Part shown: positions 47,042 to 62,424 of the stretch, one piece after another
How the letters are laid out: each line of letters begins with the position of its first letter
Position numbering within the stretch: the stretch's first letter is position 1
IMG/VR virus record: IMGVR_UViG_3300030433_002269
Span: 18,715 to 82,714 of that record
Direction: 5' to 3' (one strand)
Source of the DNA: a virus
Lineage: Duplodnaviria > Caudoviricetes
DNA length: 64,000 bases
Notes under the pieces: generated by a model
What the model saw: the letters and a program-made list of their open reading frames with translations, nothing else
What the model was told of the DNA's origin: nothing
The model's database searches: none
Position numbers and translations under genes: made by a program

Positions 47042-49731
47042 ATAACTGCACCTCCTTTACTTTGTTCTGCCAAGGCTTTAATTTTATCAAAACTATCATC
47101 GATAGGTTTGCCGCCAAGTTCTGGTAGTTCTGAGGGGTCAATTTCTGTAACCCCGCGATTATGGTCAATTAATTCTGGTGGTAAATCCCCTTGGTCATTT
47201 ATCTCTAATTCGGGTTGAGCACCACTAGCATGCTGTAAAGGCGGTACTGGCATTCCTTTAGCATTAGCACCTAGTAGTGGAGAAGCCGTGGGCGGCGGAG
47301 CAGTAGTAGCCATAGGTATCGTAGGAGGCCTTTGCATTCTTTCCCCCGTTTGAGTACCTGCTGCAGCCGCTCTAGCCTCGTTCTGACGAGCAAGGGCCTT
47401 TGCTTCGTATTTTTTCTTTTCATGTGCTAATTTGTTAGCCAACCTTTGCTCTTGCTCAGCAAGTCTCTCTTTTGTCTTAGTTCCTCTGACACCCGCTTCG
47501 AACTTTTCTTTCGCTTCCCATCCTCTTTGTGCTCGGGCTAATTTAGCGGCTTCTTGTTGCTGTGACTGTTTTTCTGAAATCTGACCTAACATCTGACGCT
47601 TCTCGTCCATGCTAGCCTTTGTTCCGAAAGGAATGAGGCCTTGTGCTTGTGCTCTGGCAAAAGCCATGTGAACATTCTCTTTTTCTGCTGCTTCAGCCTT
47701 TTGACGCCTTGTCGAAAGCCACTGACCTAACCCCTGACCTGCCCTAGCACCCTGTTGACCACCAAAGTAAACATTACTTGCAACTTGACCGAGGCTGCGG
47801 CCACCTGCAGCAAGGCCACCAAATGCACCTAGGGCTCTACCTATTTCCCTTCCGATTTTACCCCGTCTAGTAGGAGGTGCCCTGTGCCCTCCCGGTCCGC
47901 CTACAACATATACTGGCTTACCAGTGATATCATATTGCATCTCAACAGCGGCTTTCTTCAACATTGCTAATTTATTGTCGCTCCAGTCTATATTCCACCA
48001 TAGGTCCTCCTTAGTCGCCATTGGTATCTGTGGCGGTGATGCTTGAGGTGATGACGGAGGAGGAGGAGATGTAGCCATTGGTATAGGAGGTGCTGGAGCA
48101 GTAGGTGCTTCGACTGGTGTTCTACCCGGAATAGGTAATTGCAAACGAGGGCGAACAGGCTCTTCAGGTTGAGCCGGAGGATGAGGCTCATTACCCGGTG
48201 GTGCTAAGTTGGCACTAGTTAGAATCCTAGATTGCATATGCGAAGGAGCCTGAGATGTAACCGGTGCGTTTTGGAATACAGGTGCCATTTCAGATGTATC
48301 GATACCTGTCTCTGACAAATCGAATGGTTTCCAGCCCTTTGCATCTCTTATACCGGTAAGTAAAGGCTCGACCAATGCCCTGTGGTCAGGGCTATACTTA
48401 GCGTCAAGTGTCGAGTCTTCGTAATTCCTAATCATTTCCTCTGCCATTTTGACGGCTTTATCTTGTGGATGTCCTTCTGCCATAAGTTTGACACTCAAAC
48501 CTCTGTAAAGCGTTGCTAATTCGGCACCTCTGACACCTTGGCCTACATTACTTCTAGTGGTACCACCCATGCGCCTTCTACTTTTGTCGTGATGAGAATC
48601 GTCACCGGGCGTTATGCCAAAATGCTGAAACATCCTTCGCATGCCCTCTTTGTAGCGACCGCCTGTTGTACCTGCTCTGTGATAACTAGCCTGTATAGCA
48701 GGGGTTTTCCAAAGAGTGCTGAGTGTTGCAGGGTCAGATATATCATGCTTTACACCTTCCATCTCTAATGCTTCTGCCATTTTGTCCGAGTTATCTTTAC
48801 TACCCTTTCTACCTTTAGCGGTAGGTACGAACATCCAGTCTGGCATCATCCTGAGCATTCGACTAGGGTGCAAGTCCTTATGGGTGATAGAATCTTCCAT
48901 TGCTGCAGGTACCCCTAATCGATTCCTGACATTAGGGTGCATGGTACCACCCATCAGTGCTTTTTGCTCACCCTGACTTAATGCTATTACTCTACCATTG
49001 GTCAGTTTACTAATCGGTACCTTTGCACTTTGAGTGAAATAATATTTGTCTATGTCAGGGAAAGGAGCAGGTAATCCCTTAGAATATTCCCGTTTATTTA
49101 TGGCATCTAATATGAGGCGTGCAGACTCATAAGGTACGAAAAGACCAGCGTCAATTGATTGGCCTCGGTCAGCAGCAGCAACATCAGGTGTACCATGTTT
49201 GTAAGAATAATTCTGCTTCATGCCCAGTGAACCGTCAGTATTTCTGCGTCCTCTAACTTGATGGGTTCTCGCGTCTAACTTTCCCCCCTCAGGGTATCCA
49301 CCAACTACATTCTTTCTCCAAGAAGGATGGGCGAAAGGGCTCAATTTGTGATGGCTACCTTCAGGCTGTTGTTTGTTATGGTGATTAAAAATAGCGTCCA
49401 TTACACCCTCATGGCGGGTTATATCATGCATAGTGATGTCAGTCCTACCAGCAGCGTGCGCCGCTTCTAACAAATCTTTAGCAACAGCATCAACGGGGTG
49501 ATGACCTTCAATCAATTCTCCAGTCAGAGGATTATATGCAAGTGCAGGGTGGTCGGGGTCATCGCCTTCACCCAAAGCGTGTTCAGGAGGCCAACCCTCC
49601 ATAAAGTGCATTTCCCCATCGTCATCGATGAAGACCAAGTTAGCATTCTTTAGAATAGAATTTTCGTCATGGACAAAGTCTCGCCAAGTCTTAGTGACTT
49701 TACTGGGAATGTAAGTAGACTTGAACATCAA
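47038..49731 (-). CDS. Large hypothetical protein (897 aa), possible internal/ejection protein
   Basis: Pro-rich linkers with IPMAT x3; Gly/Ala amphipathic segment and coiled coil after MLKKA. Confidence 0.65.
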   Translation of the reverse strand: MMFKSTYIPSKVTKTWRDFVHDENSILKNANLVFIDDDGEMHFMEGWPPEHALGEGDDPDHPALAYNPLTGELIEGHHPVDAVAKDLLEAAHAAGRTDITMHDITRHEGVMDAIFNHHNKQQPEGSHHKLSPFAHPSWRKNVVGGYPEGGKLDARTHQVRGRRNTDGSLGMKQNYSYKHGTPDVAAADRGQSIDAGLFVPYESARLILDAINKREYSKGLPAPFPDIDKYYFTQSAKVPISKLTNGRVIALSQGEQKALMGGTMHPNVRNRLGVPAAMEDSITHKDLHPSRMLRMMPDWMFVPTAKGRKGSKDNSDKMAEALEMEGVKHDISDPATLSTLWKTPAIQASYHRAGTTGGRYKEGMRRMFQHFGITPGDDSHHDKSRRRMGGTTRSNVGQGVRGAELATLYRGLSVKLMAEGHPQDKAVKMAEEMIRNYEDSTLDAKYSPDHRALVEPLLTGIRDAKGWKPFDLSETGIDTSEMAPVFQNAPVTSQAPSHMQSRILTSANLAPPGNEPHPPAQPEEPVRPRLQLPIPGRTPVEAPTAPAPPIPMATSPPPPSSPQASPPQIPMATKEDLWWNIDWSDNKLAMLKKAAVEMQYDITGKPVYVVGGPGGHRAPPTRRGKIGREIGRALGAFGGLAAGGRSLGQVASNVYFGGQQGARAGQGLGQWLSTRRQKAEAAEKENVHMAFARAQAQGLIPFGTKASMDEKRQMLGQISEKQSQQQEAAKLARAQRGWEAKEKFEAGVRGTKTKERLAEQEQRLANKLAHEKKKYEAKALARQNEARAAAAGTQTGERMQRPPTIPMATTAPPPTASPLLGANAKGMPVPPLQHASGAQPELEINDQGDLPPELIDHNRGVTEIDPSELPELGGKPIDDSFDKIKALAEQSKGGAVI

Positions 49732-50891
49732 GCCGCCCTCCCACTACCAAGTCCTACGAAGATTTTGCCAGAAGCACCCATGTTTTTGTTTTCATCAGCA
49801 TCTATGCTTTCGGTACCACCTTGTGGATTAGTCGTACCACCATCCCTGTGCCCCGCTTCGTTATTTTCACCTTGTGTGGGGAATGCTTTCTGTGCATTTT
49901 CTTTAGCCTCAAGTTTGCGCTTTAGGTCTCTAAGCAGCCTTCTTATTTGAGAGAAGTGAAGATAATCCATATTCTTCTGCACTTCTTCCAAGTCCCCCTT
50001 GATATCTTGGTAAGCCTTGAGCGTGATGCTTGATTCCTTAATGTGAGGCTCTCCTACATTTTTTATCTTCTTTGGCTTAGTCATAGGCTTTGATTCTGAG
50101 CCGGGCATTTCTACAGGTTTATTCGGACTGGTAGTTCTTTCACCGAACTGACCGTGCCCTTGAATTTGACGAGGCATAGATATGCCACCTTGTGTGCGCT
50201 GACGAGCCATTTGGCCTCTCCAGTGTTTGTAACCACCAACATCTAGTTTCTTAGGATTAGTTGTCGAAAGGTGCTCCATACCAACTGCCAAAGGTGCATC
50301 CATTAGTCCTCCACCTTTATTGCCATGCTCGTGGTGTAACTCTCTGGCCTTCCCTTTAGCCCTTCTAGGATTAGCAGTCCAAATATCTCTACCGCCCGGT
50401 GTAGGCTCAAACTGAGGTTGTCCCCAAGGCTTCTGAGTTTTCAATAACTCTGACCAAGCAGCCTCCATTGGCTCACCAGTCATAACCGGCCTATAGCCAC
50501 CAAGCACACCATTAGTCTGAGCACCAATCGCTGTACTAACATCAGGTCCAGCCTGACCGGGCATACCAGTCAACTGACTGACTTCGGCACCAATGGCATT
50601 TTCATCTTCACCCATCATCTGAGGGTCTTCACCCGGACTCATAGGTGGTAGACCTAAATCCATTGGCTCTTCATCAATTTCGACTTTAAGGTGAGGGAGG
50701 TTCTGTACTTTATCATCAGCCTCTTGCTTTGCTTGCTTCTTGTCACGCATCTGCTCTAACTGCTCTGGGTCACCAAAGCCATATTTTGACTCATCGATAT
50801 CGTCACGAGTATAGAGATTTTCAGCCTCAGAACGAGGATTATACATTCTGGTATCAGAACCAGTTCCCATTCCTCCCTGTCCACTCGGCAT
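49728..50891 (-). CDS. Hypothetical protein (387 aa) with internal GEPMEAAWSELLK motif
   Basis: Acidic N-half, basic C-half, separated by the motif. Confidence 0.7.
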   Translation of the reverse strand: MPSGQGGMGTGSDTRMYNPRSEAENLYTRDDIDESKYGFGDPEQLEQMRDKKQAKQEADDKVQNLPHLKVEIDEEPMDLGLPPMSPGEDPQMMGEDENAIGAEVSQLTGMPGQAGPDVSTAIGAQTNGVLGGYRPVMTGEPMEAAWSELLKTQKPWGQPQFEPTPGGRDIWTANPRRAKGKARELHHEHGNKGGGLMDAPLAVGMEHLSTTNPKKLDVGGYKHWRGQMARQRTQGGISMPRQIQGHGQFGERTTSPNKPVEMPGSESKPMTKPKKIKNVGEPHIKESSITLKAYQDIKGDLEEVQKNMDYLHFSQIRRLLRDLKRKLEAKENAQKAFPTQGENNEAGHRDGGTTNPQGGTESIDADENKNMGASGKIFVGLGSGRAA

Positions 50892-50896
50892 TCAAT

Positions 50897-51613
50897 TCAC
50901 TCCAATACTTCGATTATATCTGGGTCAAGTTCGCCATCTGCTTGTGACAGAATCTGTTGCTTGATACGCTTCCAAGTGTCTGGACTTTCTTTACCCAGTT
51001 CCAACTTGAGGATATTGATTGTGTTAGTAGATGCAGCCTTGGTTGGCTCTGCCCACTTCTCTTGATACTTGCTTAAGTCTTTGAGAGTCTCTCTAACTTC
51101 TTTGTGCAACTTGACCATATCGGATACAACTCCATCGTCATGTATGCTGGTTTCAGCCATGAACTGACTTAATTTTGCATTAAGCCCTTCTACATTGGAG
51201 CGCATCAAGTCTACTTCTTCTCCTACTTTCAATGCTACAACCGCAGTTGCACTTTTCTTGACAAGTGGTTGGAAATGATGCTTCATATGACGGAATACCA
51301 ACTGCTCGGAGCAATCAAGTTCTTTGGAAATCTCGTCAGTAGTAATTTCTCCCTCAAAGTAAGAAACCTCATACGCCTTTCGATTATCACTAGTGCAGAC
51401 TACACAAGAGTGATTTGCACCAGCGTGATAATCCCCCATATGATTGTTCATATGACGCTCTGTAGTGTTGGCTCTCCAACCCATTTCTCGGTCTAAGTCA
51501 CGAGGCTCTAGTATACCATCTACTAGATTTTGCTCAAGGTCATCCCTGTCTTCTTGTTGACACAAGGGGCAAGATGCTCTTGTCTGGCGACCGGTCCCCA
51601 TACGCATTCCCAT
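50897..51613 (-). CDS. Putative terminase small subunit with two tandem Zn/HTH units (start 51613, 51607 or 51601)
   Basis: CPLC...ERHMNNH and CVVC...FRHMKHH repeats, then coiled coil; upstream of terL. Confidence 0.5.
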   Translation of the reverse strand: MGMRMGTGRQTRASCPLCQQEDRDDLEQNLVDGILEPRDLDREMGWRANTTERHMNNHMGDYHAGANHSCVVCTSDNRKAYEVSYFEGEITTDEISKELDCSEQLVFRHMKHHFQPLVKKSATAVVALKVGEEVDLMRSNVEGLNAKLSQFMAETSIHDDGVVSDMVKLHKEVRETLKDLSKYQEKWAEPTKAASTNTINILKLELGKESPDTWKRIKQQILSQADGELDPDIIEVLE

Positions 51614-51693
51614 GACAAAGGTATGAATAACCCTTTTGTATGGAAAGGTTGAGAATAGGTCTGATGAAACTACCAAGAGCGAAGCCCAGAATC

Positions 51694-52002
51694 ATGGGAG
51701 TTCCCATATCTATAGAGACCGTAAAAGGCCTTACTAAAGCGGGTAGAGACATATTTACCAGAAGATTTGTCGACGATGATGTCAAGAAAATAAGACAGGA
51801 CATCTGTATGGTATGCCCAAGTTGGGAACACAAGAGTAACCGATGCAAAGAATGTGGGTGCCAGATGAGAATCAAGACTAGCCTTGCTTCTAGTTCATGC
51901 CCACTTGGTAAATGGTATGCTCACGGCGAGTCACTACATCTCACTGATTCTGGAATAGATAGTGCCGAGCATGAAGAAGGCACCGAAGAGACCAGCGACT
52001 AA
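51694..52002 (+). CDS. Cys-rich small protein (CxxC...CxxCGC...K...CPxGKW)
   Basis: CMVC..CKECGCQMRIKTSLASSSCPLGKW, a pattern common in phage proteins; opposite strand to neighbours. Confidence 0.65.
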   Translation: MGVPISIETVKGLTKAGRDIFTRRFVDDDVKKIRQDICMVCPSWEHKSNRCKECGCQMRIKTSLASSSCPLGKWYAHGESLHLTDSGIDSAEHEEGTEETSD

Positions 52003-52185
52003 ATAGGCCATTACGGTACTACTAATCGAATCTGAACCTACTAACAAGATAATCCCTAATGTGACAATTATCGATAATAACTGAACCATCACCATATCAA
52101 CAATAACGGTTTTCTTAGGAGCAAAAACCCCTAATGTACCGCTAGCAAAACCTACTCCTAATTTGTCTCTGTCCATCATAATCAC
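51934..52185 (-). CDS. Small two-TM membrane protein (83 aa)
   Basis: Two hydrophobic stretches; SD GAGGTGA. Confidence 0.65.
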   Translation of the reverse strand: MIMMDRDKLGVGFASGTLGVFAPKKTVIVDMVMVQLLSIIVTLGIILLVGSDSISSTVMAYLVAGLFGAFFMLGTIYSRISEM

Positions 52186-52823
52186 CTCATTCCCATCATC
52201 TTACCCATGAAAGAGCCAGCATTACTACTAACTTTGTTCATGAATCCTTCATCTTGCAATGCTGCATTCAAAGCACCGCCCATCATACTTTGTTGAGCAA
52301 GAGCCGCAATCTGTTGCTGCTGCATCTCCGCTTGCTGAATATTGGTTTGACTTGCCATCTGCAGTGCGTTAAACTGACTTGTGACATTCTCAGCACTCAT
52401 TGTCTGAAGATTAGAAGGAAGGCTGGTTATATCCATCTTCATGGTGTCACTCTCGCCATCAATTGTAAAAGTGGCGTTCTTCAGTATCTCCAATACAGAG
52501 AAACTAACAAGGTCATTGAGCAACTGAAGCATAGTAGCCATCTGTGCACTACCGATGAACCTATCCATAGGTGCCAGCGTCTTCATCAAAGCAAGTTGTA
52601 TCTCTGCTTCGCTTGGAGGAGTCATAGGTTGACCCATCATTCCCATTTGTTGTTGGTTCATCCCCATACCTGCCATGAAACCTTGTGCCATTCCATTTTG
52701 AGCAAAGCCTTGTTGCTGTTGCGGAGCAAATGGGTTTGCAAAGTTATTACCTTGCGATGCTTGGTTATTCACACCCAGATTTAGGGCTCCGTTTTGCTGT
52801 CCTGTATTACCAAATAGACTCAT
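52182..52823 (-). CDS. Q/M/G/N-rich low-complexity protein (213 aa)
   Basis: Composition; central helical segment. Confidence 0.7.
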   Translation of the reverse strand: MSLFGNTGQQNGALNLGVNNQASQGNNFANPFAPQQQQGFAQNGMAQGFMAGMGMNQQQMGMMGQPMTPPSEAEIQLALMKTLAPMDRFIGSAQMATMLQLLNDLVSFSVLEILKNATFTIDGESDTMKMDITSLPSNLQTMSAENVTSQFNALQMASQTNIQQAEMQQQQIAALAQQSMMGGALNAALQDEGFMNKVSSNAGSFMGKMMGMR

Positions 52824-52832
52824 ATTATCACT

Positions 52833-53861
52833 TCATTGTTGGGGTAAAGTCATCTGCTCTTGAGGGGCGGCTATAGTTTGGGCAGAAGGTACTCCCTCAT
52901 TATTGATTGCCCCGTTAACCGCTGCAACGGCAGATGGATTAGGATTCTGCATAATACCAAGATTATTAATTGCGTCAGCCAATGTAGGCTGCTGAGAAAG
53001 AATCTCCTGTTGGAAAAGCCTGAGGTCGAACACAATCATAGTTACATCGTTGATTCCGGTCTCAGGGTTCTTGTAATGTAACAAATTGATACCGGCTTGT
53101 GTCTTAGAGTCCTTTTCAAGTTCGACGAAGAAAGGCTCATACTTCTTGAGGAACTCAGGCGTGTTATCCTTTTTCTTAACTATAGAAATTGGTACTGCTA
53201 CAGTAGATACACCTTTCTTCATCATTTCCTTGAGGCCGATTTTAGTCTTGTTGTGGTCCTTATCGTTTTCAGATTCCCACTTACAAAGAAGATGGTAAAG
53301 GTGTAGATGCTCAGGGCAATAAGTCCCTTTCATCTTGCGACCATTGGTCACTTGCTCTCTAGCAACAAATGGTTCAGGAGTACCAGTCACTGGATTTTTC
53401 CAATAAAGGTCCCAAAGACTCTTACCTGTCTCCTCATCACAAATCTTAGCATACAGATTATCGTATTTGATTAACTCTTCACAGTCACATCCGTCAATAA
53501 CACATAGGTTGCTCTGTCGGTTGTAACGGTATTTTCGCCCCCAGACCCAACGAACTGGGTTATACCAAGCCCTCTTAGTAGGCGTTAGTAATTTGCGAGC
53601 CTGCTTGATATCTTGCTTTCTGGCCTTTCTTGGGTCAGGGTTCCTACTAGGGTAGAAATTAACCTGAGGGACCTCTATGTTTTGCTTTTGTGCAACATCT
53701 TTCATCCCTTGCTGCGCTGCCTGCATTTCAAGCAACTGCTCGTGACTTGCATTACCTTGTTGACCAAGTGCCATCAAGTGCGCTTGGCTCATGTTAGCAA
53801 GGTTAGCATCGCCCCTTGGAACTCTACCGTAACCACCAAATCCCATACTCATTCTATTCAT
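52833..53861 (-). CDS. Hypothetical protein with split Zn-binding motif (342 aa)
   Basis: CVIDGCDC...YCPEH; Q/M-rich termini; SD AGGTGA. Confidence 0.7.
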   Translation of the reverse strand: MNRMSMGFGGYGRVPRGDANLANMSQAHLMALGQQGNASHEQLLEMQAAQQGMKDVAQKQNIEVPQVNFYPSRNPDPRKARKQDIKQARKLLTPTKRAWYNPVRWVWGRKYRYNRQSNLCVIDGCDCEELIKYDNLYAKICDEETGKSLWDLYWKNPVTGTPEPFVAREQVTNGRKMKGTYCPEHLHLYHLLCKWESENDKDHNKTKIGLKEMMKKGVSTVAVPISIVKKKDNTPEFLKKYEPFFVELEKDSKTQAGINLLHYKNPETGINDVTMIVFDLRLFQQEILSQQPTLADAINNLGIMQNPNPSAVAAVNGAINNEGVPSAQTIAAPQEQMTLPQQ

Positions 53862-53890
53862 TCTCTCTCACCTTTTGATAAATAATTTAC

Positions 53891-55476: not shown

Positions 55477-55491
55477 AGTATAGTGTCACAT
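55477..55491 (-). promoter_or_regulatory. Putative operator TATGTGACACTATAC(T)
   Basis: 14-bp exact match AGTATAGTGTCACA to 61141-61154; upstream of the GTPase operon. Confidence 0.5.
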
Positions 55492-55516
55492 AAATGATTC
55501 TATGATAAATTAAGGT

Positions 55517-55547
55517 GGGCATAGGCCAAGAGGGATAGGCCTCGCCC
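55517..55547 (-). terminator. Intergenic hairpin after the 55584 gene
   Basis: GGGC/GCCC plus AGGCC/GGCCT stems. Confidence 0.35.
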
Positions 55548-55583
55548 AAGCCCAATTATTCATTCATTCTATTCAAATTCTTC

Positions 55584-56759
55584 TCACTCAGCCTTTTCGG
55601 AGTCCAACTTGTCAGGCTTGCCTTCGGTACTTGGACCGGGCTTACCATGACCCATTACAAGGATAAGGGCAGCGCCGCCTTTCTTGGGCTTCTTCTCTTC
55701 CTTTTCTTTGTACATGTTCTCCTTGGCTTTGTTGAGAAGGTCATCACCTAAACTCATATTCTCACCTAATCTAATATCGCCATATTCTGGCCTTTCCTCG
55801 AATTCCTTCATTTCCTGACCATAATGCCCTTGGGCAGCCTTTTCTCCTTCATATACTGCGAAGTTAGGACCACCTTGTGAATACCCTGTTGCTAAATCCC
55901 CCATACCGTGACCTTGTCCAAATTCAAAGTCACCTTGAGGGTCACCGAAGCCGAAGCCAGATGACTGTCCACCATAACCAGCAGCACCAAAGTCACCAGA
56001 GGTAGGCACATCCCAATCGTCGGCAAGTTGATTCGCAAACCAACTTAGGGCCAAAGGACCGGAGCGCTGCGCCACTCTACCCAATGCTCCTCTAACTTTA
56101 CCAACATCCATGATGTCTTTATCTACGAGTCTCATCTTAGGGATACCGTCAGCCGTTCTAACTACATTACCGAACTCGTCAGTCACAGGTATCCATTGTC
56201 TACCCATCTGTGAAGCGCCCATACGATGGCCGACTCTTTCAACCGCTCTACCGGGGGCCCCTGTAACATGAGGCAAGATATTACTTCTAGGCATAATTCT
56301 ACCCGCTGCAGTACCCACATCGGTAGCCGCTGGTTGCATTGCTCTTCCTAATCTGGAAACCTGTGGACCAGCGGTCCTCATAGCAGCACCGCCGCCACGA
56401 GCAGCAGCCCTACCGTAAGAAAATGGATTGAGGCCCTGCATAGCACCTAGACCAAGTCCCAAAGCCCTGTGACCAAGATTAGGGTCATCTGTTGTGCCCC
56501 ATGTCATTCCAAGAATCGGGTCTTCATACCTGACCATATTCGGGTCAAATCCAAAGAAGTCTTTTTCGTCATCACCAATAGCATCTAAACCGTGCATACC
56601 TTGTGAGCGAGCGGCACCATAAGCAGCGAATAGAGCAGGTACTGCGAGTGCTAACGGTGCAATTTTTTCCAAATTGTCCCCAGACTCTGCAATCTCAAGC
56701 CCTCTGTCGGACTTAATCAAATTCATAGCCGAATCAATCGGATTTGATGAATTCGACAT
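55584..56759 (-). CDS. Gly/Ala-rich amphipathic protein with N-terminal NPIDSAMNLIKS motif; possible ejection protein
   Basis: Hydrophobic LALAVPALFAAYGAA and ALGLGLGAMQGL; start moved to ATG 56759. Confidence 0.65.
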   Translation of the reverse strand: MSNSSNPIDSAMNLIKSDRGLEIAESGDNLEKIAPLALAVPALFAAYGAARSQGMHGLDAIGDDEKDFFGFDPNMVRYEDPILGMTWGTTDDPNLGHRALGLGLGAMQGLNPFSYGRAAARGGGAAMRTAGPQVSRLGRAMQPAATDVGTAAGRIMPRSNILPHVTGAPGRAVERVGHRMGASQMGRQWIPVTDEFGNVVRTADGIPKMRLVDKDIMDVGKVRGALGRVAQRSGPLALSWFANQLADDWDVPTSGDFGAAGYGGQSSGFGFGDPQGDFEFGQGHGMGDLATGYSQGGPNFAVYEGEKAAQGHYGQEMKEFEERPEYGDIRLGENMSLGDDLLNKAKENMYKEKEEKKPKKGGAALILVMGHGKPGPSTEGKPDKLDSEKAE

Positions 56760-56967
56760 GTAAACCCCCACGAAGTCGTTGGTCATAAGCGTGTTGTATG
56801 AAGTGGTGATTATCAGCGGCCATCATTAGTAGTGACAAAACATCCCAAGAATCGTCTTTGTCTACAGTCTCCTCTATCTTGATGAGGTCTTCTAAAGCCA
56901 TAGATTCCATGGCACGGAGCACATTGCTCCACCAGTCGGTGGGCATGATAGGTGCCTCTTCGGGCAT
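56734..56967 (-). CDS. Hypothetical protein (77 aa)
   Basis: SD GAGGT; AT-rich promoter-like sequence upstream. Confidence 0.6.
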   Translation of the reverse strand: MPEEAPIMPTDWWSNVLRAMESMALEDLIKIEETVDKDDSWDVLSLLMMAADNHHFIQHAYDQRLRGGLHVEFIKSD

Positions 56968-57044
56968 ACCTCACTCTATAGAGTAATAGTAAAAAGTCAT
57001 TGTGGACAAAACAATCATGTATAACTATACTTGACAGATAAGCG

Positions 57045-57236
57045 ATGGAAGCCAATCTACAGTATATTTGGTACATCGCATTAGCAGTTTGGGCAACTAC
57101 CTTTGGGATGCTTTGGTGGTGGGCTACTTCAGAGTTCCCCGACTCGCAAAGTGACGAGCCCTATTCTTGTGGGGGTCCTCGGCAACCATGCTTCCGTCTT
57201 TTGTGTGAGACATGTCGGGACCACCTTGACCCATGA
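57045..57236 (+). CDS. Possible small membrane protein (63 aa)
   Basis: Trp-rich TM; TATAACTATA about 20-25 nt upstream; 3' part overlaps the opposite gene. Confidence 0.4.
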   Translation: MEANLQYIWYIALAVWATTFGMLWWWATSEFPDSQSDEPYSCGGPRQPCFRLLCETCRDHLDP

Positions 57237-58071
57237 TACCACGCTTACGGCGCTCACGGGCTAACTCCCTGCGATACTTTTTGCGCTTAGGTGACGACTC
57301 ATACTTGGTATTGTAAGCATTCTTGTGGGCTATAGCCTCAGGACTAGTAGCCTCTTTGAGCATACGCCAAGCAAGGTCCATTGGTTCACCCGCCTGTATC
57401 ATGTCAGGCTGTTGTATAGGTGGTGGCAACATACTCGCTACTTGCTGCTGCTCTTGCATTGAAGGATAATAACCAAATTGGTCTGCCCTTATTTGACTAT
57501 ACATATCACCAGTATCAGGGCGTTCCGCTAAATATGAATTTACACCGGGTTGACTCGATTGGTCTGCTTGATGTGCCCCATACTCATGAGCATAGGACTT
57601 AGCCTGTTCTCTTAATGCTAATCTTTCTTTATCAGCGTCAATTTCAGATTGATTAAGAATAGGTCGTTTTTGAAAACGATTCCTCCTCCTTCCCGAAGGT
57701 TGTTCCCTCGGCTGCGATTCGCCAAAGACTGGGGCCATTAATTGAGGCGAGCCAAATTTTTCAGTTGCGAAATCTTCCATTTCGCCTTCAATCAAACTAT
57801 GTACATGCTCGTGTGCAAGAGTGTCTGCTAAATCTTGTACAGATTCATCACTGTCATCTGTATCTCTTCCGACCCTAGCCCCAACAAAAGAGCCATCGGG
57901 TTGAAGCCGTGGGAAAGAGCCGCCTTTTGTGTAGGGAGAGCGTATATTTCTAAAATGGCTTAGTGCATCTTCTGAATCCTCGCCGGGTGTTGTGAAGAAA
58001 CCCCTAGAACTATCATTATCATCTATGTAGAAATCTTTCAACAAAAGCCAAGCAGACTCAAACGGCGACAT
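57124..58071 (-). CDS. Two-part protein: zincin-like metallopeptidase plus basic HNH-like tail, each preceded by the AWxxLK motif (315 aa)
   Basis: LAHEHVH (HExxH) and YAHEYGAH; SPFESAWLLLK and GEPMDLAWRMLK; DMSH..NRAR tail. Confidence 0.65.
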   Translation of the reverse strand: MSPFESAWLLLKDFYIDDNDSSRGFFTTPGEDSEDALSHFRNIRSPYTKGGSFPRLQPDGSFVGARVGRDTDDSDESVQDLADTLAHEHVHSLIEGEMEDFATEKFGSPQLMAPVFGESQPREQPSGRRRNRFQKRPILNQSEIDADKERLALREQAKSYAHEYGAHQADQSSQPGVNSYLAERPDTGDMYSQIRADQFGYYPSMQEQQQVASMLPPPIQQPDMIQAGEPMDLAWRMLKEATSPEAIAHKNAYNTKYESSPKRKKYRRELARERRKRGIMGQGGPDMSHTKDGSMVAEDPHKNRARHFASRGTLK

Positions 58072-58107
58072 CTACTCACCTGTCCACGCTGCTTCAAGAG
58101 GATTCAT
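58072..58107 (-). CDS. 11-codon mini-ORF MNPLEAAWTGE (motif-only peptide or gene relic)
   Basis: ATGA overlap with the upstream stop; TAG directly abuts ATG 58071; contains the GGTGA SD. Confidence 0.45.
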   Translation of the reverse strand: MNPLEAAWTGE

Positions 58108-58304
58108 CCTTCATACACCACCACGACAATGAACATACCACGACAATTCTCCATGTGAACTGCCCTAACTTTACTGCCATCTCCGCCGCCACCTCCAGTG
58201 AGTGCTCTCAATTTTGTTTGTAAGTCACCGGCGAGGTCGTGACCAGTTGAGCCTAAAAAGTCAGCAGGTGCGTATTCATACTTTACTACATGTAAGTCGC
58301 CCAT
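58104..58304 (-). CDS. Small protein (66 aa), possible paralog of 32146-32301
   Basis: KYEYAPAD..RGMFIVVVVY vs VFEFAPAE..RGLSVYTVF. Confidence 0.55.
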   Translation of the reverse strand: MGDLHVVKYEYAPADFLGSTGHDLAGDLQTKLRALTGGGGGDGSKVRAVHMENCRGMFIVVVVYEG

Positions 58305-58323
58305 TAACAGTTCCACCTCTTCA

Positions 58324-58908
58324 TTACCACTTCACCTTATCTGCCCAGTATGCTGCGCTCATTGGACCGCGCTTAATATTCTTAGCATGGCGGGCCTTAA
58401 ACGATGCACGCTTCTTTGCTCTCTTACCTTTTGGATTATCTTCGGTTACAGTATCTGCACCTTGTTCACCGAATCGAATTGTCTTGACTTTACCACCTGA
58501 CCTCGCTACAACCACATGGGATTTCTTAGGGTGATTGGGAGTACGCTTTGGCTTGTTGTAGCCAGATACACCAGCACGAGCAAGCCTTGGGTCCTTTTCT
58601 TTCTTCAGCAAGAGCCAAGCGTCTTCAAACGGGTCACCACTCTTAACGACAGTAGGCTTACCACCCACTCCTTGCTTCTTTGAGCGCTTCCTCTTAGTAG
58701 CCGCTCTCTTTTGACCACTGGTCATTTCACCACTGGTCTTAGGTGTTTTACTACTTACTCGCACACTAGGTCTACACTTGGGGTAACCTTTGCTAGATGT
58801 CTTTGCCTTGGACCTACCACAAGGTGGATGCTTACCATCCTTATCTTTACGAGAAACATCAACCCACTTTTCTTTGAACCAACGGTTCAAATTTTTCTGC
58901 ACCGTCAT
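58324..58908 (-). CDS. Highly basic two-domain protein split by GDPFEDAWLLLK (194 aa)
   Basis: RWFKEKWVDVS..CGRS..YPKCRP and KSHVVVA..IRFGEQGA..SFKARH..SAAYWADKVKW, both common in marine phages. Confidence 0.75.
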   Translation of the reverse strand: MTVQKNLNRWFKEKWVDVSRKDKDGKHPPCGRSKAKTSSKGYPKCRPSVRVSSKTPKTSGEMTSGQKRAATKRKRSKKQGVGGKPTVVKSGDPFEDAWLLLKKEKDPRLARAGVSGYNKPKRTPNHPKKSHVVVARSGGKVKTIRFGEQGADTVTEDNPKGKRAKKRASFKARHAKNIKRGPMSAAYWADKVKW

Positions 58909-59225
58909 TTCTTCTTCCCCTTTTTACCTCGGAACTTACCCTTGCAGTATTGCACTGCCCAACCATTTGCGTAGGCTGAAGGGTAAACCTTGAATTTGCG
59001 CTTGGCCGCAGCCTTGCCTTCAGGGCATAATTTCTTAGCAACATTCTCAGGAACCACTAGGATTTCGCCCTTCATCATACGGAATGCGATGTCCATTGGT
59101 TCGCCCATTGTGAACATAGAGTCCTTGTCACCAGAGTCGTCAATATTGTAATGCATCCTGTCTATGTGGTTACCTAGTTGCACAGGATGTGCGAACTGAG
59201 CACCGCATATATCGCAGGTCGGCAT
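58905..59225 (-). CDS. C2H2 zinc finger plus motif plus basic YPSAYANGW domain (106 aa)
   Basis: CDIC..LGNHIDRMH; GEPMDIAFRMMK; KFKVYPSAYANGWAVQYCKG. Confidence 0.7.
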   Translation of the reverse strand: MPTCDICGAQFAHPVQLGNHIDRMHYNIDDSGDKDSMFTMGEPMDIAFRMMKGEILVVPENVAKKLCPEGKAAAKRKFKVYPSAYANGWAVQYCKGKFRGKKGKKK

Positions 59226-59385
59226 GGCCTATGCACTAAGGCCGCTGATAATAAAAGTGGCCCTTACCCCGAGAAAGGAAATACTAGTTAGAAAAAATAG
59301 CGACAACAAACAAGTTATTAGGGTTGGGGTAGGGTAAGAACCGATTCACCCCTTTTCGTCGTTTCTATAAGAACATTTCCCTAAA

Positions 59386-59529
59386 TCAGTCCTCTGCCAT
59401 CCACATATCATCACATTTCTGACAAAGCCATGCGTGACCCCTGTGGACTCCACCGACTTTAATGTACAATCTCTTGGTAGGATGTGCCCCACAACTAGGG
59501 CAAACCGGGCTTGCTTTGCGACCATTCAC
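59386..59529 (-). CDS. Zinc-ribbon microprotein missing from the ORF track (47 aa)
   Basis: Hand translation MNGRKASPVCPSCG..WLCQKCDDMWMAED; GTGA overlap. Confidence 0.6.
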   Translation of the reverse strand: MNGRKASPVCPSCGAHPTKRLYIKVGGVHRGHAWLCQKCDDMWMAED

Positions 59530-59687
59530 AATTCTTCCTCCTTATCCATGATGTATCTTCCCATCACACTAACCTTGAACTCAAGTTTTCTGAGTTTTTT
59601 GTTTAGTTCCTCAACCTGCTTGACATAAGACCAGACAAGTCCACCTGCCAAAACCAAGATGATGAACCAAACAAGACCTAGGCTCAT
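59526..59687 (-). CDS. Single-TM plus coiled-coil microprotein missing from the ORF track (53 aa)
   Basis: Hand translation MSLGLVWFIILVLAGGLVWSYVKQVEELNKKLRKLE; TTTTAA about 25 nt upstream. Confidence 0.65.
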   Translation of the reverse strand: MSLGLVWFIILVLAGGLVWSYVKQVEELNKKLRKLEFKVSVMGRYIMDKEEEL

Positions 59688-59701
59688 GTTAGTGCGATAG
59701 G

Positions 59702-59716
59702 TTTGTGACCCTTAAA
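59702..59716. promoter_or_regulatory. Putative operator TTTGTGACCCTTAAA overlapping a TATA box
   Basis: 13/15 match to 62662-62676. Confidence 0.4.
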
Positions 59717-59721
59717 ATTAA

Positions 59722-60027
59722 TCATCGCTGTGGTCGTATTTGGTCTAATACAGAAATCTCTTCTGGAGTTAAACCACCAAATCGGGCACGATGATACATG
59801 TTCATCCCTCTTGTTACTGGGTCTGCTGACGCTTTAGGAGGAAGCGGTGGTACTTGCATCATACCTTCCTGTATCTCCTCTTCGCTCAAATCTGATAATC
59901 TACCAGTGCTCGAAACAAGGCCCATAGGATTAGGAGGCTGAGAAGGAGCAGGGGTAGCCTGCATTTGTGAAAACGAAGGTAAAGATTGCTTCAACACAGT
60001 CCAAGCCTGCTCAAATGGACTCAACAT
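59722..60027 (-). CDS. Hypothetical protein with N-terminal SPFEQAWTVLK motif (101 aa)
   Basis: Motif at residues 3-13. Confidence 0.7.
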   Translation of the reverse strand: MLSPFEQAWTVLKQSLPSFSQMQATPAPSQPPNPMGLVSSTGRLSDLSEEEIQEGMMQVPPLPPKASADPVTRGMNMYHRARFGGLTPEEISVLDQIRPQR

Positions 60028-60029
60028 GA

Positions 60030-60878
60030 TTAAGCGGATAGGGTTTGGGCTAAAGAAGGTTCTGCTATCTTCAAAGCAATGCGCTTGGCGTTGGCAAGGT
60101 CATCTATAGACACGCCACAGTCGTAGCCCCTAGCGGTCAACCAGTTGACCAGTGTCTCGGTTGCCAAGTTACCGGGACTCCCCTCTACAAACGGACAGCC
60201 TCCTAATCCGGCAATGCTAGCATCGAATTCAGTAATTCCACACTCGATACCCTTGCGAACCAGCGAAAGCGCAGCCAACTCACGCTCAGCACGGTGATGA
60301 AGATGAAGTGCGGGGCGAAGCCCAAACTTCTCACAGATACCAGCACCAACCTCAACCTCATGCTCAGTGCCCACTCCGACAGTATCTGACAACACCACAG
60401 TGTCACCAAACAGTTTCGCAGCCTGAATAGCCTTGACACGCTTACCCATAGGGATGTCACCCTCGTAAGGACAGCCGAAGTAGCACGATATATAGACACG
60501 GACATTAGCCTTCGGCACACCTTCAAGCATGAACATGTAGCGAGCCAAAGCCTCATTGAGTTCACAACCAAGGTTTCTTCTGTTGAATTCCTCAGATGGC
60601 GAGAATACTATATTGAAGTGAGTGACCCCTGACTTAAGCGCCCGGTCCATCCCACGCTGATTCATAACGAGTGCAGCCCCCTGTCCGTCAAAAACCCGCT
60701 CGGCATCTGCCATCTGGGGAACATAAAGGGGATGAGCGAAACTCACAGTTTCTATAGAGTTGAGGCCTGCGCTCCTAAGTGCATCGATTAGTGCCCGCTT
60801 CATACGAGTGGGTACAAGTTTCTTGATTGTCTGTAATCCGTCACGAGGGCCGACTTCGTAGATTGAAATCTTCTTCAT
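60030..60878 (-). CDS. hmgL: Hydroxymethylglutaryl-CoA lyase (DRE-TIM)
   Basis: YEVGPRDGLQ, ETVSF..VPQMAD, LSDTVG, LHLH, FDASIAGLGGCPF..GNLATE; SD GGTGA before ATG 60878. Confidence 0.9.
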   Translation of the reverse strand: MKKISIYEVGPRDGLQTIKKLVPTRMKRALIDALRSAGLNSIETVSFAHPLYVPQMADAERVFDGQGAALVMNQRGMDRALKSGVTHFNIVFSPSEEFNRRNLGCELNEALARYMFMLEGVPKANVRVYISCYFGCPYEGDIPMGKRVKAIQAAKLFGDTVVLSDTVGVGTEHEVEVGAGICEKFGLRPALHLHHRAERELAALSLVRKGIECGITEFDASIAGLGGCPFVEGSPGNLATETLVNWLTARGYDCGVSIDDLANAKRIALKIAEPSLAQTLSA

Positions 60879-60893
60879 CGCCCTCACCAACAC

Positions 60894-61055
60894 TCACTCG
60901 AGGAAAAACAGTATCTTTGTTATCCTACGCCAAGCCTGCTGCCTAGCGGTCAACTTCTCTCCAGTCACAAATTCAATGCCCGTTTCTTTTTCGACACGGT
61001 CTAGTCTAGCAGATTGATAATCAAACCATTCGTCGAGTAAATTACACCGCGTCAT
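60894..61055 (-). CDS. Small protein missing from the ORF track (53 aa, MTRCNLLDEWF...)
   Basis: Hand translation; AT-rich box about 25 nt upstream; abuts the hmgL SD. Confidence 0.55.
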   Translation of the reverse strand: MTRCNLLDEWFDYQSARLDRVEKETGIEFVTGEKLTARQQAWRRITKILFFLE

Positions 61056-61140
61056 GTTGACTCCGAAAGTCGTCTAAGAGTTAAATTTTACTGCTCAAAC
61101 TCCCCTAAATTGATAATAATTGGCGGTTCTTGCTTGGGCC

Positions 61141-61155
61141 AGTATAGTGTCACAA
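61141..61155 (-). promoter_or_regulatory. Putative operator TTTGTGACACTATAC(T)
   Basis: 14-bp exact match to 55477-55490; intergenic. Confidence 0.45.
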
Positions 61156-61234
61156 AAAATGAAATCAAACCTAGTATGACGCATAACACCCAAAGTGGCA
61201 AGCCTGTCACTTCAACGGGGTCAGGGAGCATACA

Positions 61235-61999
61235 TCACATCAGGTCCATGACATTGCCACCGTACATCGAAGGTACTGGCTGAGAGCGGTCAACATAAGG
61301 CATCTGATTAGCCAAAGCAGTCTGGTACGAACCAGAGTTAGCATTAGTCATTATAGCAGCAAGTGCATCTGCCGGGAGATAAGCAGTCTCATCGCTATCA
61401 ATAATTGAGTCATACTCTCCACCATGCATCAGTTCGGTAAGCGCCCCTTGCTGAAGAGCGGGAAGCACTTTGTCATGCAAATCTAACTGGTATTGTGGAG
61501 AGCGTATGTCAGGTCTCTGTGTTTCTACAGGCAGTCCCATAGTCGAAGCCGTGTTGTAAAGTCGCATCTCGTTACCCGGAACAGGCCGACGACCACCTAA
61601 CATACCAGCCGCCGCCATACTACCGGGACCAGTAAAGTCAGCAGCGTGACCAGAAACAGGCTCTCTGTCGTGATACATTGTGCCATCTGCATCTACCGTG
61701 TGGTCACCACCATGAAGAGAGGCATCCATACCACGCAAATCCATGTCGCCCATTGCCGAAGCCAACTGTTCTAAAGAAGGCTTGGAATGTTCTGCCCCTG
61801 CTAACCCCATGTTACGAAGCATCTGCCTGTAAGCCATACCTTGAACGGCTGGATGAACCGCACCTAACTGCGTGTTTTTCATTTCAGGCTCAGATAAATT
61901 CATCCTACCCCTATGCTGAGAATAAGGTAAAAACATCTGCGTCCTAGGGTCAGCCTTCAAAAATTGCCAAGCAGCGTCTATTGGTCTCATGGTCATCAC
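61235..61999 (-). CDS. Hypothetical protein with N-terminal RPIDAAWQFLK motif (254 aa)
   Basis: Motif at the N-terminus; overlaps the upstream stop. Confidence 0.75.
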   Translation of the reverse strand: MMTMRPIDAAWQFLKADPRTQMFLPYSQHRGRMNLSEPEMKNTQLGAVHPAVQGMAYRQMLRNMGLAGAEHSKPSLEQLASAMGDMDLRGMDASLHGGDHTVDADGTMYHDREPVSGHAADFTGPGSMAAAGMLGGRRPVPGNEMRLYNTASTMGLPVETQRPDIRSPQYQLDLHDKVLPALQQGALTELMHGGEYDSIIDSDETAYLPADALAAIMTNANSGSYQTALANQMPYVDRSQPVPSMYGGNVMDLM

Positions 62000-62424
62000 T
62001 GCTGCACAAACTGATTAATCTGTTGTGGGTCTAACTGCCCCATACCCTCATAGTTAAACATGTCATTAGGTAAACCTAACTGATTTGAAAGATGAGTGTT
62101 AACCGCCTGATTAGTGTAGTTTGAAACATCAATGCCTCCTGTGTCAGGAACCATAGTTCTCATCGCCATCGGCTGAGCAATGCTAGGGTCTTTACTTGGA
62201 GGATTCAGATTTCTTTTGTCACCATACTGGTTTGCGTAGTGAGCCCCTCCAAACGCTTCAGGTCTATCCCTCATGAGTTTATGCTGAGTAGCAATATCTG
62301 CCTGATTGAAAAGTTCAGCGTTTTTTCGACCTCTGTCAAAATAACCCGGTGCTGGCATAGATTGCATAGGCCTCTCTGCCATCATGTCTTTCAATATCTG
62401 CCAAGCCTGCTCAAAAGGTCCCAT
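61996..62424 (-). CDS. Hypothetical protein with N-terminal GPFEQAWQILK motif (142 aa)
   Basis: Motif at residues 2-12. Confidence 0.75.
   Translation of the reverse strand: MGPFEQAWQILKDMMAERPMQSMPAPGYFDRGRKNAELFNQADIATQHKLMRDRPEAFGGAHYANQYGDKRNLNPPSKDPSIAQPMAMRTMVPDTGGIDVSNYTNQAVNTHLSNQLGLPNDMFNYEGMGQLDPQQINQFVQQ

What the first reader, a model, noticed from the sequence alone, without database searches (positions are those of the whole stretch)
49728..62424. Shared P[FMIL][ED]xAWxxLK tag on unrelated proteins: a candidate archaeal-virus capsid-targeting system
Seen at N-termini: GPFEQAWQILK, RPIDAAWQFLK, SPFEQAWTVLK, SPFESAWLLLK, NPIDSAMNLIK. Seen internally between domains: GEPMDIAFRMMK, GDPFEDAWLLLK, GEPMDLAWRMLK, GEPMEAAWSELLK. 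Also as a mini-ORF (NPLEAAW). The sequences after the tag are unrelated (peptidase, basic domains, amphipathic protein). Established analogy: T4 internal proteins share a 10-aa capsid-targeting sequence removed by the prohead protease, and IPI* blocks GmrSD restriction. Inference: a plug-and-play signal that loads cargo into the prohead, is cut after Lys, and delivers effectors into the host. I know of no described equivalent in archaeal viruses.
Basis: partly seen in the sequence, partly recalled or inferred. Interest (0 to 1): 0.88.

Follow-up and report, generated by a model that had tools for sequence, protein, structure and literature searches.

The report
Shared address tag on magrovirus proteins
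An uncultured ocean virus of archaea (a magrovirus) puts the same 10-residue helical peptide at the start of, or between the domains of, dozens of otherwise unrelated fast-changing proteins encoded beside its head-assembly genes; it most likely loads them into the capsid and is then cut by the head protease, as phage T4 does, but packaging has not been shown.

Summary
The 82.7-kb magrovirus genome has nine copies of [S/N/G/E]-P-[FMI]-[ED]-x-A-[WFM]-x-x-[LIM]-K plus one truncated copy. All lie on the structural-gene strand at window 50439-62418, where about 0.02 are expected by chance.

A degenerate-codon scan of IMG/VR found the tag in 84 loci. At least 48 are magrovirus relatives, with up to 10 copies per 15 kb. 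In 68 distinct cases it sits 2-6 residues after the start codon. The sequences that follow fall into about 70 BLAST-unrelated groups. A stricter N-terminal pattern (tag preceded by ATG-NNN) gave five chance-like hits in 185,579 prokaryote genomes, and a relaxed pattern gave none in two haloviruses.

Tagged genes form a fast-changing array and also occur inside the head module. Internal tags sit directly before small basic domains that are stand-alone proteins in marine bacteriophages. The tag ends in hydrophobic-Leu-Lys, as do three conserved boundaries in the capsid protein and the S78 (HK97-type) prohead protease.

The best reading (about 50%) is a capsid-loading and processing tag that works like the T4 capsid-targeting sequence. 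Packaging, cleavage and delivery are all untested. The "peptidase" cargo is unsupported. I found no published description. This scan has noted similar tags on at least seven other magrovirus genomes.

The parts
61996..62424 (-). 142-aa protein with an N-terminal tag (M-G-PFEQAWQILK; tag at 62389-62418). The rest is poor in hydrophobic residues and has no family match.
61235..61999 (-). 254-aa protein with an N-terminal tag (MTM-R-PIDAAWQFLK; tag at 61955-61984). It shares a second motif, HPA[IV]QGM, with some tagged proteins of relatives.
59722..60027 (-). 101-aa protein with an N-terminal tag (ML-S-PFEQAWTVLK; tag at 59989-60018).
58905..59225 (-). 106-aa protein: weak, sub-threshold C2H2 zinc-finger match (Pfam E 0.003, 18.5 bits against a 27-bit cut-off), internal tag GEPMDIAFRMMK (59070-59099), then a small basic domain (phrog_27331, N-terminal part of DUF5872).
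58324..58908 (-). 194-aa protein: DUF5872 domain (residues 5-78), internal tag GDPFEDAWLLLK (residues 93-102; 58603-58632), then a basic domain (phrog_7595) that starts at residue 103, directly after the tag's Lys. Roseobacter phage CRP-5 gp32 is a stand-alone homologue of this last domain and starts at the same point.
58072..58107 (-). Mini-ORF MNPLEAAWTGE*. It is the remnant of a 68-aa tagged zinc-ribbon gene that is intact in relatives (L034:156-359). About 170 nt were deleted between two GCN-TGG (Ala-Trp) sites.
57124..58071 (-). 315-aa protein: N-terminal tag (58036-58065), a variable domain with an HExxH string (no family match), internal tag GEPMDLAWRMLK (57355-57384), then a basic domain (phrog_6437) that is a stand-alone protein in cyanophage S-CRES3 (gp107).
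55584..56786 (-). 400-aa Gly-rich protein with the weakest tag (NPIDSAMNLIK, 56712-56741; 9.1 bits). The likely start is the ATG at 56759 (MSNSSNP...), as in relatives (MSESSLP...).
49728..50891 (-). 387-aa low-complexity protein with an internal 11-residue tag variant, GEPMEAAWSELLK (50439-50471). It is conserved in synteny upstream of the 897-aa protein and TerL in relatives.
34278..35681 (-). Prohead protease (Peptidase_S78, HK97 type) fused to an acidic, scaffold-like C-terminal region; the candidate processing enzyme. Conserved hydrophobic-Leu-Lys sites end the variable leader (LLK, 35625-35633) and sit at the protease/scaffold junction (FRILK, 35166-35180). The Trp-bearing C-terminal tail MSWDEVHNLAGSVWN is conserved (34281-34325).
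33102..34262 (-). HK97-fold major capsid protein (SU10_MCP), the candidate docking surface. The conserved site [DE]-[IL]-L-K|A-D lies at residues 31-36 (ELLK at 34161-34172). It aligns with MSK|AD in the halovirus HVTV-1 capsid protein.

Best explanation
The peptide is a portable address-and-processing tag of magroviruses. It forms a short N-capped amphipathic helix: a cap residue, then Pro; an acidic residue at position 3; and Phe/Met, Ala, Trp and Leu on one face.

Inferred mechanism: the helix docks the protein that carries it onto a conserved component of the assembling procapsid (capsid-protein interior, scaffold or portal). The S78 prohead protease then cuts after the terminal hydrophobic-Leu-Lys. 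N-terminal tags are removed, and fusion proteins are split at internal tags into separate modules. The cargo is a fast-changing set of mostly small, low-complexity or very basic proteins. It would end up inside the head and could leave with the DNA at infection.

Shown here: the tag, its modularity, its restriction to this virus group, its genomic association with the morphogenetic genes, the equivalence of N-terminal and internal copies, and the shared hydrophobic-Leu-Lys ending. Inferred only: docking to the capsid, cleavage, and delivery to the host.
For: (1) The tag is real and modular.
- There are 9 copies against 0.02 expected, and the HMM separates them cleanly from noise.
- There are 155 distinct tag contexts in IMG/VR loci plus this genome. 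In 68 of them the first in-frame ATG lies 2-6 codons before the Pro.
- The downstream parts fall into 74 BLAST clusters, with almost no Pfam families in common.

(2) It is specific to this virus group.
- At least 48 of the 84 IMG/VR loci carry homologues of this window's genes (TerL 69-77%, MCP 69-81% identity).
- The N-terminal pattern hit only 5 places in 596 Gb of prokaryote genomes. All are internal positions in bacterial frames, about the chance number.
- Haloviruses HVTV-1 and HCTV-1 have none.

(3) The genomic context is morphogenetic.
- All tagged genes lie on the structural strand.
- Besides the array upstream of TerL, relatives carry tagged genes between TerL and the portal gene, 4-5 genes after MCP, and after the giant tail ORF.

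(4) The array is hypervariable.
- In relatives with TerL 75-78% identical, the flanking untagged core genes are 64-92% identical.
- Most of their tagged genes have no BLAST match in the window.
- The window's mini-ORF is a deletion scar of one such gene.
- T4-type internal-protein genes are described the same way: diverse, with only the capsid-targeting sequence conserved (PMC3012670).

(5) Internal tags behave as N-terminal tags of downstream modules.
- The phrog_7595 match starts at the residue after the tag's Lys.
- The stand-alone bacteriophage homologue starts at the same point.
- The same domain occurs as a 108-aa N-terminally tagged protein (P0018) and behind internal tags.

(6) The cut site is plausible.
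- Hydrophobic-Leu-Lys is invariant at three boundaries of expected protease substrates across dozens of relatives, even though the protease leader itself varies. These are MCP residues 31-34, the end of the protease leader, and the protease/scaffold junction.
- HK97, the type member of the S78 family, matures its capsid protein by cleavage after Lys103 (my own knowledge). Residues 103 and 104 read K and S.

(7) AlphaFold models, both of low confidence, place the tag in a helix flanked by coil. The helical hydrophobic moment is 0.5-0.6.
Against: - There is no direct evidence. The virus is uncultured, so there is no virion proteome, no cleavage data and no complex model.
- The tag HMM finds no tag-like segment in MCP, scaffold, portal or the 1889-aa head protein.
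- Resemblance to the conserved scaffold tail (ELAxMSWDDVHRLAG) is limited to [AS]-W-x-x-[LV]-[KH].
- Hydrophobic-Leu-Lys is a common tripeptide, and I chose the three boundaries after the fact.
- The residue after Lys is not conserved.
- The main array sits at the far upstream end of the leftward gene block, next to the divergent junction with the replication genes. Early expression is therefore not excluded.
- The array is interleaved with a conserved membrane/GTPase gene set that could equally be the partner.
- Most cargos are neutral or acidic rather than basic.
Confidence: 0.5

Rival explanations
1. The tag is a docking helix for a common partner that is not the capsid. Candidates are the conserved membrane/GTPase module encoded inside the array, the virus-encoded chaperonin, or a host hub protein. 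Under this reading the tag gathers a changing set of accessory proteins at one site in the infected cell.
For: - A 10-residue conserved amphipathic helix with an invariant Trp looks like a binding peptide.
- The array is interleaved with a syntenic membrane/GTPase gene set that is 40-90% conserved in all relatives.
- The genome encodes a thermosome subunit.
- The array lies at the start of the gene block, so it could be expressed early.
- No tag-like segment is detectable in the head proteins.
Against: - Tagged genes also occur between TerL and portal and a few genes after MCP, far from the GTPase module.
- The strict hydrophobic-Leu-Lys ending shared with the MCP and protease boundaries is not explained.
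- The strict N-terminal form of the tag (PFExAWxxLK preceded by ATG-NNN) is absent from 185,579 prokaryote genomes, so mimicry of such a host motif is unlikely; looser or internal forms were not searched there.
- Philosof et al. report chaperonins in only 12 of 26 magroviruses (PMC5434244).
Confidence: 0.25
2. The tag is a processing signal only. A protease (the prohead protease or another) recognises it, removes N-terminal propeptides and splits fusion proteins. It plays no part in targeting, and the proteins need not be packaged.
For: - Internal tags sit exactly at module boundaries.
- The ending is shared with conserved MCP and protease boundaries.
- Precedent, from my own knowledge: the N-terminal extension of ribosomal protein L27 and of the phage 80alpha capsid and scaffold proteins is removed by the Prp protease.
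Against: - Ten conserved residues, including Pro-Phe-Glu-x-Ala-Trp, are far more than the three-residue ending shared with the MCP and protease sites. Those sites lack the first seven positions.
- Removing 12 residues from the start of about 70 unrelated proteins has no obvious purpose unless the peptide does something before it is cut.
- HK97-type prohead proteases act inside the procapsid (my own knowledge), so cleavage by this enzyme would itself imply packaging.
Confidence: 0.15
3. The tag is a relic of common descent. The tagged proteins are one fast-diverging paralogous family whose N-terminal helix alone stays recognisable, for example because it nucleates folding or self-association. 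There is no shared partner.
For: - Many cargos are low-complexity and would lose detectable similarity quickly.
- Some N-tagged proteins share a second motif, HPA[IV]QGM.
- Tandem arrays suggest duplication.
Against: - The tag sits in front of domains of clearly independent origin. These include three different small basic families with untagged stand-alone homologues in bacteriophages, zinc ribbons, a DnaJ-type zinc finger and a glycine zipper.
- It occurs internally as well as N-terminally.
- Degenerate copies show that the tag decays in some lineages.
Confidence: 0.07

Closest known systems
Capsid-targeting sequence (CTS) of phage T4 internal proteins IPI-III and Alt, and the diverse internal-protein genes of T-even phages
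   Same: - A short N-terminal peptide is the only conserved part of a diverse set of proteins (PMC3012670).
- The tagged genes are clustered and differ between close relatives.
- The tag ends at a plausible prohead-protease site.
- The cargos are mostly small.
   Different: - There is no sequence similarity to the T4 CTS.
- The protease family differs: S78 (HK97 type, cut after Lys) here, against T4 gp21, which cuts after Glu in L/I-x-E (my own knowledge).
- Here the tag also occurs internally, between modules.
- The host is an archaeon.
- Packaging, cleavage and ejection are shown for T4 and not here.
Propeptide-bearing ejection and inner-body proteins of giant phages (phiKZ, SPN3US), processed by the prohead protease
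   Same: Many head-internal proteins are cut at a short consensus site by the prohead protease (PMC7411985 and PMC10052503, listed).
   Different: In those phages the propeptides are long and not a single portable 10-residue peptide. The proteins were identified by virion mass spectrometry, which is not available here.
C-terminal capsid-targeting tail of the HK97 protease gp4, and capsid-binding C-terminal helices of scaffolding proteins (P22, 80alpha)
   Same: - A short terminal peptide docks a protein to the inside of an HK97-fold shell (my own knowledge).
- This virus's protease-scaffold ends in a conserved Trp-bearing helix.
- That helix shares [AS]-W-x-x-[LV]-[KH] with the tag, and the full spacing with the 387-aa protein's variant (AWSELLK against SWDDVHR).
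   Different: - The tail is C-terminal and occurs on one protein.
- The tag is N-terminal or internal and occurs on many.
- The tag HMM does not detect the tail, so mimicry is unproven.
Encapsulin cargo-loading peptides
   Same: A short peptide on unrelated cargo proteins binds the interior of an HK97-fold shell (my own knowledge).
   Different: Encapsulins have no portal, protease or DNA. Their peptides are usually C-terminal and are not cut. There is no sequence similarity.

Membership tests
T4-type capsid-targeting sequence system | A short N-terminal peptide is shared by otherwise unrelated proteins of one virus. | tested here: met
   68 distinct N-terminal contexts and 74 downstream BLAST clusters.
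T4-type capsid-targeting sequence system | The tagged genes form variable loci that differ between close relatives. | tested here: met
   Gene maps of 14 loci show a conserved core and a variable tagged array. The window also holds a deletion scar of one tagged gene.
T4-type capsid-targeting sequence system | The peptide is necessary and sufficient to load a protein into the prohead. | not testable with these tools
   This needs tag-reporter fusions or virion proteomics. Multi-chain structure prediction was not on offer.
T4-type capsid-targeting sequence system | The peptide is removed by the prohead protease at its consensus site. | tested here: inconclusive
   The tag ends in hydrophobic-Leu-Lys, as do three conserved boundaries in MCP and protease. 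The protease is S78, and HK97 gp5 has K103|S104. There are no cleavage data.
T4-type capsid-targeting sequence system | Sequence relationship to the T4 CTS, the gp21 site L/I-x-E, and a gp21-type protease. | tested here: not met
   The tag consensus is xPFExAWxLLK and the protease is Peptidase_S78. This is an analogue, not a homologue.
Scaffold or protease C-terminal capsid-binding tail (HK97 gp4, 80alpha, P22) | The peptide resembles the virus's own scaffold tail closely enough to compete for the same site. | tested here: inconclusive
   The tail ELAxMSWDDVHRLAG is conserved in 46 variants. It shares only a four-position Trp-centred pattern with the tag, and the tag HMM gives no hit on it.
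Prp/L27-type N-terminal extension removed by a host protease | The same extension occurs on a host protein. | tested here: not met
   Only 5 chance-like matches, none at a protein's N-terminus, in 185,579 prokaryote genomes, and none in archaea.
IS630/Tc1 transposase catalytic-Glu helix (NPIExxWxxLK) | The motif lies within a DDE transposase domain. | tested here: not met
   One of the five prokaryote hits looked to me like an IS630/Tc1-type motif (L136; from memory, not tested against a transposase family). None of the tagged proteins scanned against Pfam (the window's eight and 45 representatives from relatives) matches a transposase domain. The resemblance is that of an N-capped helix.

The most novel reading that the evidence does not exclude
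Magroviruses are among the most abundant archaeal viruses of the surface ocean. Under this reading they use one portable 10-residue peptide as a cargo code. Any protein that acquires it, at its start or in front of a module, is loaded into the HK97-type capsid, released by the head protease at hydrophobic-Leu-Lys, and delivered with the DNA. That would give these viruses a rapidly exchangeable set of injected proteins, including small basic proteins shared with marine bacteriophages. It would be the first protein-delivery and capsid-loading system described for an archaeal virus.
Probability: 0.4. Interest if true: 0.85.

Novelty: new variant of a known kind. Interest (0 to 1): 0.75.

Why it matters
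If the tag loads proteins into the capsid, it marks out, from sequence alone, the set of proteins that an uncultured and globally abundant archaeal virus carries into its host. That set is the most likely place to find anti-defence and host-takeover functions of Poseidoniales (marine group II archaea) viruses.

The hypothesis is sharp and cheap to test: a tag-reporter fusion co-expressed with two genes, the capsid protein and the protease-scaffold. It would also extend the T4-style capsid-targeting principle to archaeal viruses and to the HK97 protease family.

The tag also explains much of the "dark matter" next to the head genes of these viruses. In addition, it is a simple sequence marker for recognising this magrovirus lineage in metagenomes.

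Tried and rejected
- Chance or a nucleotide-level element: rejected by simulations, the HMM separation and synonymous codon variation.
- A host-derived motif: rejected. The prokaryote genome scan gave only chance-like hits.
- Tag-like segments in MCP, protease-scaffold, portal, or the 897-aa or 1889-aa proteins: none found with the HMM.
- 'MSWxDILK'-type tags noted by this scan in other magroviruses: absent from this genome.
- The protein between TerL and portal (406 aa) as a tagged protein: rejected. In relatives the tagged 254-aa gene is an extra gene inserted between TerL and the 406-aa homologue.
- The 315-aa protein as a peptidase: no support from Pfam, PDB sequences or the ESM Atlas.
- A tagged protein of relatives (L036:12136-12810) as an ADP-ribosyltransferase, which would parallel T4 Alt. 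There was only a weak ESM Atlas lead (PARP on 16% of one cluster's members, Tox-ART-HYD1). AlphaFold gave pLDDT 34.5, so no fold search was made.
- AlphaFold of the 194-aa protein: mean pLDDT 53.6. The tag is a helix (residues 93-103) between low-confidence linkers. This is suggestive only.
- One relaxed-pattern hit in a Methanomassiliicoccales virus: a single copy that is not N-terminal, lying well inside a long open frame. I treated it as chance.
- The published N-terminus of the HVTV-1 capsid protein (Pietilä et al. 2013, J Virol 87:3248): the paper is not held.
- Shine-Dalgarno sites before the tagged starts: present for some genes only, so uninformative.

Full report
**What the window is.** The window is bases 18715-82714 of a single 82.7-kb contig. 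The plus-strand block outside the window encodes a clamp-loader-like AAA+ ATPase, a family B DNA polymerase, a PD-(D/E)XK nuclease and a thermosome subunit. The long minus-strand block encodes, in order of transcription:
- the region of the finding;
- an 897-aa protein;
- the large terminase (TerL);
- a 406-aa protein;
- the portal;
- a 1889-aa protein;
- an S78 prohead protease fused to an acidic scaffold-like region;
- an HK97-fold capsid protein (MCP);
- tail genes, including a 5227-aa ORF.

This is the gene set described for magroviruses, the viruses of marine group II archaea (PMC5434244). The closest cultured relatives by capsid protein are the haloviruses HVTV-1 and HCTV-1, at 34% identity.

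**The observation.** A pattern for the motif matches nine times in the genome. All matches are on the minus strand between window 50439 and 62418, and none lies elsewhere. Simulated sequence gives 0.02 matches on average. An HMM built from 102 tags scores the nine copies at 8.6-21.2 bits and nothing else above 6.9 bits. Synonymous codons vary at the conserved positions, so selection acts on the peptide.

**Beyond the window.** A degenerate-codon pattern for PFExAWxxLK found 84 stretches in IMG/VR.
- A looser pattern found further copies in the same loci, up to 10 within 15 kb (L066).
- Across all loci there are 155 distinct tag contexts. In 68 of them the first in-frame ATG lies 2-6 codons before the Pro, most often as M-x-P.
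- The N-terminal consensus is M-[SNRQK]-P-F-[ED]-Q-A-W-x-[LVIF]-L-K. The internal consensus is [GS]-E-P-M-[DE]-[IL]-A-[WF]-[RQ]-L-L-K.
- At least 48 of the 84 loci carry homologues of this window's genes, with TerL at 69-77% and MCP at 69-81% identity.
- More than 600 IMG/VR contigs encode this type of capsid protein.
- The N-terminal pattern matched only five places in 596 Gb of prokaryote genomes. All five are internal positions in bacterial frames, about the number expected by chance.
- A relaxed pattern found nothing in HVTV-1 or HCTV-1.

The tag is therefore a feature of this virus lineage, not of cells or of the nearest cultured archaeal viruses.

**Modularity.** The sequences downstream of the tags fall into 74 BLAST clusters.
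- Of 45 representative tagged proteins, only a handful match any Pfam family: DUF5872, DUF6321, a DnaJ-type zinc finger and glycine zippers.
- Tagged proteins are poor in hydrophobic residues, about 21% against 26-33% for the globular proteins of the window.
- Internal tags sit directly in front of small basic domains:
  - In the 194-aa protein the phrog_7595 match begins at residue 103, the residue after the tag's Lys.
  - The stand-alone homologue in Roseobacter phage CRP-5 begins MAKKDPRLERAGVSGYN, against K|KEKDPRLARAGVSGYN here.
  - The C-terminal domain of the 315-aa protein is likewise a stand-alone protein in cyanophage S-CRES3.
  - In the large protein database the same basic domain occurs as a 108-aa N-terminally tagged protein and also behind internal tags.
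- Internal tags therefore look like N-terminal tags of modules that became fused to an upstream gene.
- Degenerate copies also exist that my pattern misses, for example MTSLETAWTLLK and MTAWWELLK.

**Genomic context.**
- Relatives share a syntenic core. It runs from the membrane proteins, GTPase and the 342-, 213- and 259-aa proteins, through the 387-aa tagged protein and the 897-aa protein, to TerL. These genes are 40-90% identical to the window's.
- The tagged array upstream of that core, around an HMG-CoA-lyase-like gene, differs in number and content. In L055 and L058 only one or two of seven tagged genes have a BLAST match in the window.
- The window's mini-ORF is the remnant of a 68-aa tagged zinc-ribbon gene that is intact in relatives. 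An internal deletion occurred between two Ala-Trp codon pairs.
- Tagged genes also occur between TerL and the portal gene (L044, L021, L011, L030), four to five genes after MCP (L024, L033, L040, L043, L071), and after the giant tail ORF (L023). In every locus inspected they are on the structural strand.

**The possible cut site.** The tag ends in [LVIF]-L-K in nearly all copies. Across dozens of relatives the same ending is invariant at three boundaries of expected protease substrates:
- [DE]-[IL]-L-K|A-D at residues 31-36 of the capsid protein;
- the end of the otherwise variable leader just before the protease catalytic domain;
- FRILK|E at the protease/scaffold junction.

The capsid site aligns with MSK|AD in HVTV-1. 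The protease is of the HK97 (S78) family. HK97 matures its capsid protein by cutting between Lys103 and Ser104 (my own knowledge), and one search confirms those residues are K and S. This makes cleavage after the tag's Lys plausible. However, the tripeptide is common, and I chose the boundaries after seeing them.

**The possible docking site.**
- The protease-scaffold tail (ELAxMSWDDVHRLAG) is strongly conserved.
- It shares only [AS]-W-x-x-[LV]-[KH] with the 10-residue tag. It shares the full spacing only with the 387-aa protein's variant, AWSELLK.
- The tag HMM does not detect the tail.

Mimicry of the scaffold tail is possible but unproven.

**Structure.** The spacing of the conserved residues puts Phe, Ala, Trp and Leu on one face of a helix, with a hydrophobic moment of 0.5-0.6. 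The S/N/D-Pro-x-Glu start is a helix-capping box (inference). Two AlphaFold models place the tag in a helix flanked by coil, but both are of low confidence (pLDDT 34.5 and 53.6).

**Interpretation.** The pattern matches what is described for T4-type internal proteins: diverse proteins that share only a capsid-targeting sequence (PMC3012670). I rate a capsid-loading and processing tag at about 50%. The rivals are:
- a docking helix for another partner, about 25%;
- a processing-only signal, about 15%;
- a relic of common descent, about 7%.

Nothing here shows packaging, cleavage or delivery.

**Novelty.** Three magrovirus papers do not mention such a motif. A full-text search for the peptide strings found nothing. 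This scan has recorded similar tags, some with other consensus sequences, on at least seven other magrovirus genomes. Those are unchecked AI notes, not independent evidence.

Noticed in passing
window 58324-58908 and 57124-57384; L140:2507-2770; L139:2507-2770: Small basic domains of this archaeal virus are 55-74% identical to stand-alone proteins of marine bacteriophages (Roseobacter, Celeribacter and Lentibacter podoviruses, cyanophages, pelagiphages). There they lie in clusters of several tiny basic genes. This implies recent gene exchange between archaeal and bacterial viruses, or a conserved unknown function.
   Followed up: partly
window 35625-35633, 35166-35180 and 34161-34172: Hydrophobic-Leu-Lys is invariant at the end of the variable protease leader, at the protease/scaffold junction (FRILK|E) and at MCP residues 31-34 across dozens of relatives. 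These are candidate maturation cut sites.
   Followed up: partly
window 34281-34325: The protease-scaffold protein ends in a strongly conserved Trp-bearing tail (ELAxMSWD[DE]VH.LAG...). It is a likely capsid-binding helix.
   Followed up: partly
window 60030-60893: An HMG-CoA-lyase-like gene (Pfam HMGL-like, E 2e-21) sits inside the tagged array. It is conserved at 36-97% identity in many relatives and acts as a fixed landmark within the variable array.
   Followed up: no
L036:12136-12810 (also L018 and P0001-P0009): This tagged 225-aa protein family of relatives has a conserved YHGTS motif and a weak ESM Atlas lead to PARP/Tox-ART families. In P0009 it is fused, through a degenerate tag (PFVDSFSLLK), to a DUF5872 domain. 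The fold prediction failed.
   Followed up: partly
L029:7455-7784; L019:4729-4953: The tagged cargos of relatives include a glycine-zipper protein (possibly membrane-active) and a DnaJ-type CXXCXGXG zinc-finger protein.
   Followed up: no
L136:940-975: From memory, the IS630/Tc1 transposase motif around the catalytic Glu (NPIExxWxxLK) resembles the tag. One of the five prokaryote hits looked like such a motif; I did not test that frame against a transposase family. It is probably the same kind of N-capped helix, not homology.
   Followed up: partly
L012 and L013 (215-aa and 141-aa proteins ending in the PSAYANGW domain): Some multi-module proteins of relatives start with tag variants that lack the Pro (MTAWWELLKK, MTSLETAWTLLKK). 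They carry a second, decayed tag (G[MI]xxAFDFLEKK) before the basic domain. Simple patterns therefore undercount tags.
   Followed up: partly
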